Positions 35,789 through 37,243 of a DNA stretch of 64,000 nucleotides are shown in pieces. The stretch's first letter is position 1. Each line of letters begins with the position of its first letter. The notes under the pieces are model-generated. The model made no database searches, had not been told where the DNA came from, and saw nothing but the letters and a program-made list of their open reading frames with translations. The translations under genes were made by a program, and so were the position numbers. Source of the DNA: Escherichia coli 042 (GTDB lineage: Bacteria; Pseudomonadota; Gammaproteobacteria; Enterobacterales; Enterobacteriaceae); assembly GCF_000027125.1 (NCBI RefSeq), contig NC_017626.1. The stretch is one strand, 5' to 3'.

Positions 35789-37243
35789 TTATACAAGGGG
35801 ACGATTCTCAATGGGACTATCCTCAGGGGAATTTTCCTCAGAGGAACTATCATCAAAGTCATCATCCATAGATGAAATACCATCGAATGGTGCCACGCCC
35901 GTGATTAGTTTTATTTTATTATTACGATCAGTCAAGACTCCATTTAAACCATTTTCGCTGACGGATTTTAATAATTTATCATAACTCTTATTGTCATCAG
36001 GCACATTAAAAACACACGGAGTATCAACATCAAACAATGACGTTCCCCAGTTCACATATTGAATATCATAGTTACTGAAGTTCTGTCCAGAAAAGAAGCA
36101 TCCCTTAAAATCCAATCCACGTAAATTATATAAACCACCCTCTTCTTTTGGGAGAGCAATTTTAATTCTGGCTATCTCCCAGACAAAATTGCCATTTTTG
36201 TATTTGAATACCGTTTCAAGCTCTCCTCCAGACAACTTGACTTCTGGAAATAATTTGAAATTAAACCCTACATTATTATGTGTCAACGTAGATGAACAAA
36301 AGATGGAAAAAGCTTGCAGTGCTGAATTATAGCTATCGATTTTATCTTGAGGCTGCGCTCTTGGTAAAAACTTATAGCAACACTCATAAAAATTAAGTAG
36401 AAACTCTGATGACCTTCCATTTTTATCAAATAATACCCGCTGAAAATGCTGCACAAACTTATTCGTTTTTTCTTGAATATCTATGGTGTGTTCCTTTGAC
36501 TCTAACAAAGATGAATCCTGTTGAAGTGCATTGCTCATCTGGTTGAGGAACAACTGCATTTCTTTCAACTTATCTCCATAGTGACCTTTAACTTGCTGAG
36601 AATTTTTAGTTACAGTTGAAACCTTATCTGTGTGGTTTTCATATAAATTATGTGATTCCATACAGTCATTTGGCGGCGTTTCTGAAATAACACTACGCGT
36701 TCTACCTGGCTGAAGTGAAGCAACATGAAAATCACTTTTTCTTATATTGCCGAATAGGGTCTGTTCATTTCTCTTAGCGCATTCAATAAACTGATCAACA
36801 TTATTTTTATTAGATGACAGGTTAATTTCAGAAACCGCATTTTCTTTGTTCTCCAGCTTTAGTTTAACGAGAAGGTCTTCCCACACCGTTTTTTTTTAAA
36901 ATACTACGTCAGGCTCACCATCAGCAACTAACTCTTGATTATTATCAAAGTGTACGTTGTGTACTTTTAATTTATTTTCATTAGCATCATATTTAATACG
37001 TTTTAATTGTTCTCCGGCTCCCATAATGACAAAAGCATTGCCTTCATGATATTTACATTCAGACATCATTTTTTGTAAAATTTCAAGAGCACCGTTATAC
37101 GTCCCTGAGGCAGCTTCTTTACAAATTAATTTTATAATACCATAAGCTAGTAACTCCATGGATTTAGAAGATTTTCTTTCATTACAATTTCCACTATTTA
37201 TAAATGTGCTAGTGTTAATTTCGTTGCTTTTACTAACTAACAT
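35789..37243 (-). pseudogene. ypjC-like reading frame (about 484 codons) interrupted by a single in-frame TAA
   Basis: ORFs 36896-37243 and 35789-36886 are in the same frame, separated only by TAA at 36896-36898 next to a 9-nt homopolymer (36889-36897); downstream part begins with GTG. Confidence 0.45.

What the first reader, a model, noticed from the sequence alone, without database searches (positions are those of the whole stretch)
35789..37243. ypjC-like gene split by a single in-frame TAA adjacent to a 9-nt homopolymer
The two ORFs are in the same frame and separated only by a TAA stop at 36896-36898, beside a 9-nt homopolymer (36889-36897). This is either a recent nonsense pseudogenisation or a site where homopolymer length changes could alter expression of the downstream part; the downstream ORF begins with GTG.
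Basis: seen in the sequence. Interest (0 to 1): 0.4.

Follow-up and report, generated by a model that had tools for sequence, protein, structure and literature searches.

The report
Nonsense-mutated ypjCB gene at mutation hotspot
An E. coli accessory gene of unknown function (ypjCB) has been broken by one base change that turns a leucine codon into a stop; this is an ordinary pseudogene, but the same change arose independently in at least three lineages because it sits at the junction of a run of T's and a run of A's.

Summary
On the minus strand, a 115-codon ORF (37243..36899) ends at TAA (36898..36896). Three sense codons later a 365-codon ORF continues in the same frame (GTG 36886..35789). 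The stop overlaps an A9 run (T9 on the plus strand, 36889-36897).

Together the two ORFs are one gene, ypjCB (Pfam DUF5507 + DUF5508; NCBIfam NF050179). It lies between the ileY tRNA and the ypjA autotransporter gene of E. coli. Intact alleles read GTA TTT TTA AAA AAA ACG (T5A8, Leu116). The window reads GTA TTT TAA AAA AAA ACG (T4A9). A single T>A transversion therefore makes the stop and lengthens the A run from 8 to 9.

The stop is real: five independent SRA-derived contigs show it.

The gene is not two genes. Leu116 is invariant in 19 diverse full-length alleles, and 457 of 529 complete genomes with this allele class have the intact tract.

The new point is recurrence. T4A9 sits on three different haplotypes. 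T5A7 (at least two backgrounds), T5A9 and T6A7 also occur at the same tract. That is the signature of slippage and dislocation mutagenesis.

Changing the run length cannot remove this stop, and no recoding signal is present.

ypjCB is an Escherichia/Shigella-only gene under weak constraint (dN/dS about 0.7-0.8). It was inactivated in six of twelve sampled genomes. Low interest.

The parts
35789..37243 (-). Whole ypjCB pseudogene (484 codons plus natural stop; one internal stop at codon 116)
   Evidence: Single-frame translation. The repaired protein scores 928.6 bits on NF050179 Ecoli_YpjCB. The intact orthologue matches DUF5507 at 1-160 and DUF5508 at 234-484. RefSeq relatives annotate the same interval as 'YpjCB family protein', intact or 'internal stop'.
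36896..37243 (-). N-terminal fragment ORF: ATG at 37243, 115 codons, premature TAA
   Evidence: Matches profile positions 1-115 of NF050179. The exact 115-aa sequence is found on 6 Logan contigs.
36896..36898 (-). Premature stop codon TAA at codon 116, which is TTA (Leu) in intact alleles. The mutated base is window position 36897 (plus-strand T; intact alleles have A there, i.e. coding-strand T>A).
   Evidence: Alignment of the window with 10 orthologous loci: gene position 347 is A in the window and T in the intact alleles.
36889..36897 (.). Homopolymer: T9 on the plus strand, A9 on the coding strand. Intact alleles have A8 preceded by T5; here A9 is preceded by T4 (36898-36901).
   Evidence: Tract spectrum among 529 genomes: T5A8 457, T4A9 5, T5A7 8, T5A9 1, T6A7 1.
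35789..36886 (-). C-terminal fragment ORF as called from GTG 36886: 365 codons plus the natural TAA at 35789-35791. This is codons 120-484 of the ancestral gene, not an independent gene.
   Evidence: Matches profile positions 120-465 of NF050179. There is no Shine-Dalgarno-like sequence upstream (AAAAAAAAACG-GTG; direct reading). PGAP made the same GTG call in one relative, YZLc1-3.
37300..37327 (-). Candidate sigma-70-like promoter (TTGTCT-16-TATAGT) about 55 nt upstream of the ATG. Weak evidence only.
   Evidence: The number of promoter-like sites in the region (9) does not exceed the shuffles (10.4 +/- 3.4), so this is a consensus match, not a demonstrated promoter.

Best explanation
This is a single gene, ypjCB, inactivated by one T>A transversion that converts Leu116 (TTA) into TAA. 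ypjCB is an Escherichia/Shigella-restricted, AT-rich accessory gene of unknown function located between tRNA ileY and ypjA.

The mutated T is the last T of a T5 run that abuts an A8 run (T5A8 becomes T4A9). I infer that the change arose by transient misalignment (dislocation) during replication. The polymerase slips in the run, copies the next template base, and realigns, so the base flanking a homopolymer is converted into the base of the run. This would make the site a mutational hotspot and would explain why the identical nonsense mutation is found on three different haplotypes. It would also explain why -1, +1 and the reciprocal A>T change occur at the same tract.

Shown here: translation from the ATG should terminate after 115 residues. 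Inferred, not shown: (a) the N-terminal fragment is most likely non-functional; (b) any product from the downstream part could come only from inefficient reinitiation at GTG120, which has no Shine-Dalgarno sequence but sits in an A-rich, unstructured context.

The lesion is recent. The rest of the frame is intact, and the window differs from intact relatives at only 2-4 other positions in 1,455 nt.
For: - Single-base difference from intact orthologues, in frame.
- The intact 484-aa protein is the norm. The two exact intact sequences queried are each seen on 1,000 contigs (the tool's counting cap). 457 of 529 complete genomes of this allele class have the T5A8 tract. Leu116 is invariant in 19 alleles that are 78-95% identical.
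- The stop is not an assembly error. Five Logan contigs from different SRA runs (SRR12791976, SRR29252476, ERR007650, ERR007507, ERR007508) read T4A9 on the window's haplotype. The group-2 N-fragment is seen on 191 contigs.
- Independent origins. The three T4A9 haplotypes differ at the nearest flanking SNPs: position 283 is C/T/A, and positions 494 and 620 also differ. The window is 3-5 differences from intact CFIAFB20140388 and MS14387. Group 2 is 3 differences from intact JNE25-001. AST85 differs from its nearest relatives by exactly this one base over 1,551 nt; this was checked base by base for two of them.
- The same tract carries other lesions. T5A7 occurs on at least 2 backgrounds, T5A9 in strain 1190, and T6A7 (L116F) in an O169:H41 strain.
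- Literature. Substitutions flanking homopolymers mostly convert the flanking base to the repeat base, which has been attributed to dislocation mutagenesis (Kunkel & Soni 1988, as cited in PMC4141275). HIV-1 K65R at a homopolymer end is a worked example (PMC3105016).
- The gene decays in many ways. Six of 12 sampled genomes are pseudogenes with different lesions. dN/dS between intact allele classes is 0.7-0.8.
Against: - The dislocation mechanism is inferred from the sequence pattern and the literature. No mutation rate was measured.
- A gene-conversion patch shorter than about 210 nt (between the flanking SNPs at gene positions 283 and 494) could in principle have carried TAA between haplotypes.
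- AST85 is a single assembly, so its T4A9 could be a homopolymer-boundary sequencing error. Some T5A7 and T5A9 calls in long-read 'complete' genomes could also be artefacts.
- Selection for loss of ypjCB, rather than mutational bias alone, could contribute to the recurrence.
- Nothing here shows whether either fragment is made or has activity.
Confidence: 0.88

Rival explanations
1. Single origin plus recombination: the TAA allele arose once and was moved onto the other haplotypes by short-patch homologous recombination, so the tract is not a substitution hotspot.
For: The 210-nt interval between gene positions 284 and 493 is identical in all haplotypes except at the T/A site, so a short conversion tract would leave no trace. 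ypjCB alleles are visibly mosaic: AST85 combines a tract-type 5' part with a P0036-like 3' part.
Against: Three separate micro-conversions, each confined to less than 210 nt, would be needed. AST85 differs from its closest relatives by only this base. The reciprocal T6A7 change and indels at the same tract on several backgrounds point to local mutability, which a transfer model does not explain.
Confidence: 0.12
2. Contingency locus: the T5A8 tract is a selected phase-variation switch that turns YpjCB off and on, and the window shows one OFF state.
For: At least 7 independent changes occurred at one 13-nt tract among about 530 genomes. The gene sits next to an adhesin-type autotransporter, ypjA, in an AT-rich island; this is the kind of context where phase variation occurs (general knowledge, not tested).
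Against: A8 is short for a phase-variable tract in mismatch-repair-proficient E. coli. 86% of genomes carry the ON tract. The T4A9 state cannot be reversed by a length change, only by a specific A>T substitution. Most ypjCB alleles (about 2,500 of 3,079 genomes) have no tract at all at this position, reading TGT TTA AGC AAG CAG. The gene is also lost by many unrelated lesions, which is the pattern of decay rather than switching.
Confidence: 0.06
3. Functional split or recoding: the stop is bypassed (read-through, frameshifting or transcriptional slippage), or the downstream 365-codon ORF is expressed on its own by reinitiation at GTG and retains function.
For: GTG lies only 9 nt after the stop in an A-rich, unstructured context. 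Reinitiation after nonsense codons at nearby AUG/GUG/UUG is classical in E. coli lacI (own knowledge). The downstream frame is still fully open. An A9 run is long enough for RNA polymerase slippage (own knowledge).
Against: UAA is built from U plus the first two A's, so any A-run length in DNA or mRNA keeps UUU-UAA in frame (direct reading). A full-length product would need both a +1 A transcript and a +1 ribosomal shift. There is no stimulatory RNA structure (z = 0.05) and no Shine-Dalgarno sequence. The stop is not conserved: 5 of 529 genomes. The break falls inside the DUF5507 region, which spans residues 1-160.
Confidence: 0.07
4. Two genuine adjacent genes, or a sequencing artefact at the homopolymer boundary.
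For: PGAP annotated two CDSs in one relative, YZLc1-3. Homopolymer boundaries are error-prone on some sequencing platforms.
Against: There is a sense codon in 457 of 529 genomes, full-length 484-492-aa proteins across all allele classes, and one colinear profile match. The identical T4A9 sequence appears in five independent SRA-derived contigs.
Confidence: 0.02

Closest known systems
E. coli K-12 ypjC/ypjB (b2650/b2649), the split pseudogene from which Pfam DUF5507 and DUF5508 were built
   Same: It is the same locus (ileY - ypjCB - pin remnant - ypjA) and the same gene family. It is also broken by an in-frame internal stop into an N-terminal and a C-terminal ORF.
   Different: The K-12 stop is at codon 161, not 116. 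The K-12 allele is only about 89% identical, carries a 105-nt in-frame deletion, and has no homopolymer at codons 115-119 (TGT TTA AGC AAG CAG).
RefSeq split or pseudo ypjCB alleles carrying the same TTA>TAA change (YZLc1-3: WP_016240636.1 + WP_072134768.1; EC17CM6, ESBLEC_MG32, Ec-U3, AST85: 'internal stop')
   Same: They have the identical 81-nt sequence around the stop and the identical T4A9 tract.
   Different: They lie on different haplotypes, 45 and 67-68 alignment differences from the window over the gene. For AST85, about 23 of those are 5'-end gap columns. They are therefore independent occurrences rather than the same clone.
Dislocation (transient-misalignment) mutagenesis at homopolymer ends (Kunkel & Soni 1988; HIV-1 subtype C K65R)
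   Same: The base flanking a run is converted into the base of the run. -1 and +1 frameshifts occur at the same tract, as the slippage intermediate predicts.
   Different: The mechanism is inferred here from natural variation only. Neither the polymerase involved nor the rate was measured.
Homopolymer-based phase-variable (contingency) genes of Neisseria, Haemophilus, Campylobacter and Helicobacter
   Same: A coding-region mononucleotide tract shows length polymorphism between close relatives, and this switches the reading frame off.
   Different: The tract is short (A8) and is present in only one allele class. The state in the window is a substitution that length change cannot reverse. The gene also decays by unrelated lesions. 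There is no evidence of within-strain switching.

Membership tests
YpjCB family (NCBIfam NF050179; Pfam DUF5507 + DUF5508) | Full-length colinear match to the family model above its curated cut-off (650 bits) | tested here: met
   The window translation with codon 116 restored to Leu scores 928.6 bits over profile 1-465. The two fragments match 1-115 (233 bits) and 120-465 (672 bits). The intact orthologue matches DUF5507 at 1-160 and DUF5508 at 234-484.
YpjCB family (NCBIfam NF050179; Pfam DUF5507 + DUF5508) | Conserved chromosomal position between tRNA ileY and ypjA | tested here: met
   The tRNA (CAT anticodon) lies at 37995-38070 (-). The autotransporter ORF lies at 30281-34984 (-). The same order is seen in 10 annotated relatives.
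YpjCB family (NCBIfam NF050179; Pfam DUF5507 + DUF5508) | One uninterrupted reading frame of about 450-492 codons (a functional member) | tested here: not met
   There is a TAA at codon 116. The window copy is a pseudogene member.
Nonsense-mutation pseudogene | Orthologues carry a sense codon at the stop position and an otherwise colinear open frame | tested here: met
   TTA is present in MS14387, JNE25-001, CFIAFB20140388 and 457 of 529 genomes. Leu116 is invariant in alignment A1.
Nonsense-mutation pseudogene | The stop is real in the organism's DNA, not an assembly error | tested here: met
   Five contigs assembled from different SRA runs carry T4A9 on the window's haplotype. Raw reads were not inspected.
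Homopolymer phase-variable contingency locus | Tract-length polymorphism among close relatives that changes the reading frame | tested here: met
   T5A7 is found in 8 genomes on at least 2 backgrounds, and T5A9 in 1 genome.
Homopolymer phase-variable contingency locus | The OFF state is reversible by a further change in tract length | tested here: not met
   In T4A9 the stop is T plus AA of the run, so any A-run length keeps TTT-TAA in frame (direct reading).
Homopolymer phase-variable contingency locus | High-frequency switching within one strain | not testable with these tools
   This needs population deep sequencing or reporter assays.
Programmed recoding (stop read-through, ribosomal frameshift or transcriptional slippage) | The recoding site is conserved among orthologues | tested here: not met
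   Only 5 of 529 genomes have the stop. Most ypjCB alleles lack the tract altogether.
Programmed recoding (stop read-through, ribosomal frameshift or transcriptional slippage) | A stimulatory RNA structure or Shine-Dalgarno element is next to the site | tested here: not met
   The 91-nt fold around the site gives -16.2 kcal/mol, z = 0.05 against shuffles. No GGAGG-like sequence is present.

The most novel reading that the evidence does not exclude
The T5A8 tract of this ypjCB allele class could be a selected contingency switch, not merely a fragile spot. It would toggle an Escherichia-specific protein next to the YpjA adhesin OFF and ON by length changes. More unusually, it would also toggle by a reversible junction substitution (TTA<->TAA) driven by dislocation in either run. 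The reciprocal T6A7 variant shows that the junction moves in both directions.
Probability: 0.06. Interest if true: 0.5.

Novelty: already known. Interest (0 to 1): 0.15.

Why it matters
This matters little for biology at large. It is a routine loss-of-function allele of a dispensable gene of unknown function, and annotation pipelines already flag the same lesion as 'internal stop'.

It has two modest uses. First, it is a clean natural example of a base substitution caused by a neighbouring homopolymer. The identical nonsense mutation arose at least three times, alongside the reciprocal substitution and both frameshifts at one 13-nt tract. This is relevant to homoplasy filtering in E. coli phylogenetics and to interpreting 'convergent' loss-of-function calls in GWAS. 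Second, it warns annotators that the 115-aa and 365-aa 'YpjCB family proteins' in RefSeq (e.g. WP_016240636.1 and WP_072134768.1) are fragments of one gene. The same applies to the K-12-derived Pfam families DUF5507 and DUF5508.

Tried and rejected
1. A 61-nt query around the site returned nothing because low-complexity masking left less than 28 nt of seed. 80-82-nt queries worked.

2. Structure prediction of the intact protein from a 19-sequence alignment gave mean pLDDT 38.9. This is unusable, so no fold search was run. The family is too shallow for AlphaFold: only one full-length representative exists at 50% clustering.

3. A sequence search of the PDB found nothing. PADLOC found nothing, and the PHROGs match is to a family of unknown function.

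4. The one distant hit is a 3,960-aa protein with MBG_2 repeats matching residues 386-452. It owes its score to 12 near-identical repeats, each only E about 1e-4 in pairwise comparison. I do not rely on it.

5. Recoding ideas were worked through by hand and rejected. Run-length change cannot remove the stop. A full-length product would need both +1 A in the transcript and a +1 ribosomal shift at UUU-UAA. No stimulatory RNA structure is present.

6. The promoter scan is not above the shuffled background.

7. I tried to find the window's own genome among 5,426 complete genomes. The best gene-level match is 99.8%, and the best 12-kb match is 97.5%.

Full report
**1. What is in the sequence**

The feature lies on the minus strand. 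Reading 37243 to 35789 in one frame gives 115 sense codons, TAA, three sense codons (K-K-T), then GTG. The frame continues open to the natural TAA at 35791..35789.

The plus strand carries T9 at 36889-36897, followed by AAAA. The coding strand therefore reads GTA GTA TTT TAA AAA AAA ACG GTG, i.e. T4 followed by A9. The stop is the last T plus the first two A's.

A run of 9 is not unusual in itself: there are two in the window against about 1.1 expected. The meaningful point is that the two ORFs are colinear pieces of one protein family. They match positions 1-115 and 120-465 of NCBIfam NF050179 'Ecoli_YpjCB'. With codon 116 restored, the product scores 928.6 bits against a 650-bit cut-off.

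**2. What the gene is**

The locus is the E. coli chromosome between a tRNA with a CAT anticodon and the ypjA autotransporter gene.

- The tRNA is at 37995-38070 (-). It is annotated tRNA-Ile (ileY-type) in RefSeq relatives.
- ypjA is at 34984..30281 (-).
- 3,079 of 5,426 complete E. coli genomes have the gene, always on the chromosome.
- RefSeq names it 'YpjCB family protein' or 'DUF5507 domain-containing protein'.
- The intact 484-aa protein is DUF5507 (1-160) plus DUF5508 (234-484). Those two Pfam families correspond to the two halves (ypjC and ypjB) of the K-12 copy, which is itself split by a different internal stop at codon 161.

The family is confined to Escherichia and Shigella. 426 database proteins match, and every source name among the 120 hits listed is E. 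coli or Shigella. An exhaustive HMMER scan of 1.84 billion representatives finds one full-length representative plus fragments.

Its function is unknown.

- There is no PDB relative.
- There is no PADLOC hit, and the PHROGs match is to a family of unknown function.
- The AlphaFold model is unusable, with pLDDT 38.9.
- One study found K-12 ypjC about 2-fold induced in mixed biofilms, with a modest deletion phenotype (PMC3646849).

The gene is AT-rich, at 34% G+C against 44% for the window. dN/dS between intact allele classes is 0.7-0.8, which indicates weak constraint on the amino-acid sequence.

**3. What happened at codon 116**

Two orthologues encode an uninterrupted 484-aa protein: MS14387 (99.7% identical over the 1,458-nt gene) and JNE25-001 (97.0%). 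Both read GTA TTT TTA AAA AAA ACG, i.e. T5A8 with Leu116. The window differs by one base. At gene position 347 (window 36897) the coding strand has A where intact alleles have T. This makes TTA into TAA and at the same time turns T5A8 into T4A9.

Leu116 is invariant in 19 full-length alleles spanning 78-95% identity. The TAA is therefore derived, and the gene was never two genes.

The rest of the window's frame is intact, and only 2-4 other substitutions separate it from intact relatives. The lesion is therefore recent.

**4. The stop is real**

The window's exact 115-aa and 365-aa fragments occur on 6 and 4 contigs, respectively, assembled from public read sets. Five of these contigs, from different runs, were fetched. 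All read T4A9.

**5. The same mutation recurs**

Exact 80-82-mer searches of the 529 complete genomes that carry this allele class gave the following tract states:

| Tract state | Effect | Genomes |
|---|---|---|
| T5A8 | intact | 457 |
| T4A9 | TAA nonsense | 5 |
| T5A7 | -1 frameshift | 8 |
| T5A9 | +1 frameshift | 1 |
| T6A7 | TTA>TTT, L116F | 1 |
| other differences in the 81-mer | not examined | 57 |

The T4A9 carriers fall on haplotypes distinct from the window.

- Four (YZLc1-3, EC17CM6, ESBLEC_MG32, Ec-U3) are 45 differences from the window but only 3 from intact JNE25-001.
- AST85 shows 67-68 alignment differences from the window (about 23 of them are 5'-end gap columns). It differs from two of its eight nearest relatives, the two checked base by base, by exactly this one base over 1,551 nt.
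- The nearest flanking SNPs differ among the three T4A9 haplotypes: position 283 is C/T/A, and positions 494 and 620 also differ.

T5A7 likewise sits on at least two backgrounds. That makes at least seven independent events at one 13-nt tract.

On the group-2 background, the T4A9 N-fragment is seen on 191 contigs. The shared C-fragment, which also comes from T5A7 alleles, is seen on 443.

**6. Mechanism**

The stop and its consequences for the reading frame are shown. The mutational mechanism is inferred.

A substitution that converts the base flanking a homopolymer into the base of the run, accompanied by +/-1 indels at the same run, is the classical signature of transient misalignment, or dislocation mutagenesis. 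The primer or template slips in the run, the next base is copied, and realignment leaves a mismatch at the junction. This goes back to Kunkel & Soni 1988. [quoted passage not shown] PMC3105016 works out the same mechanism for HIV-1 K65R.

Either the T5 run or the A8 run can provide the slip. The reciprocal T6A7 variant shows the junction moving the other way.

Selection for loss may add to this, since the gene decays freely. Of 12 genomes sampled across the identity range, 6 are intact and 6 carry other lesions:

- frameshifts at gene positions 170, 609, 773 and 1357;
- CAG>TAG at codon 119;
- a stop at codon 161.

**7. Consequences for expression**

Termination at codon 116 is expected to be efficient, since UAA is the strongest stop codon in E. 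coli (own knowledge). Because the stop is U plus the first two A's, no change in A-run length can remove it. This holds for replication slippage and for RNA-polymerase slippage on A9.

A full-length product would need two rare events together: a +1 A transcript and a +1 ribosomal shift at UUU-UAA. The surrounding RNA is unstructured (z = 0.05), and there is no Shine-Dalgarno sequence before GTG120. Low-level reinitiation at that GTG is conceivable, by analogy with restarts after lacI nonsense mutations (own knowledge), but it is untested. The break falls inside the DUF5507 region.

**8. Verdict**

The interpretation as a recent nonsense pseudogenisation is supported. The homopolymer is probably the cause of the mutation rather than a regulator of the downstream ORF.

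This is an ordinary pseudogene of a known split-prone gene, and the same lesion is already flagged in RefSeq. The only added value is the documented recurrence at a T5A8 junction. Interest is low.

Noticed in passing
window 37995-38070 (-): ARAGORN calls this tRNA as Met (CAT anticodon), but RefSeq relatives annotate it as tRNA-Ile. This fits the ileY type, whose CAU anticodon is lysidine-modified. ypjCB sits in the AT-rich island next to it.
   Followed up: partly
L016 (strain AR13438), codon 119 of ypjCB; window equivalent about 36887-36889: An unrelated allele without the homopolymer carries an independent nonsense mutation (CAG>TAG) only three codons downstream of the window's stop.
   Followed up: partly
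L004, L018-L022 (K-12, NCTC86, O145, O157 and others); gene positions 626-730 of the 1,455-nt form (window about 36514-36618): The K-12/O157 allele class of ypjCB carries an in-frame 105-nt deletion. It is still annotated as intact (449 aa) in O157:H7 and O145, so the central region is dispensable or variable.
   Followed up: no
YpjCB residues 386-452 (window about 35885-36085, -) versus P0164: There is weak similarity to the 12-fold repeated MBG_2 (YGX-type) domains of a 3,960-aa protein. Each repeat alone scores only E about 1e-4. This could hint at an adhesin-like beta module, or it could be chance.
   Followed up: partly
window 29000-41000: No complete E. coli genome among 5,426 matches this 12-kb stretch at 99% or better over its full length; the best is 97.5% over 95%. 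The window's lineage is poorly represented among finished genomes, mainly because of ypjA divergence.
   Followed up: no
window 35617-35644 (+): A strong terminator-like hairpin (12-bp stem, 6 G-C pairs, T-rich tail) lies on the plus strand between ypjCB and the pin-like recombinase remnant. I did not identify its upstream transcription unit.
   Followed up: no
window 12122-12130: This is the only other homopolymer of 9 or more in the window (A9). I did not check whether it lies in a coding region.
   Followed up: no
L001 (strain CFIAFB20140388), gene position 170; window equivalent 37069-37074: The window's closest complete-genome relative has an intact T5A8 tract. It is frameshifted instead by loss of one base in an A6 run (T6 on the window's plus strand), which is another homopolymer-associated lesion in the same gene.
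   Followed up: partly
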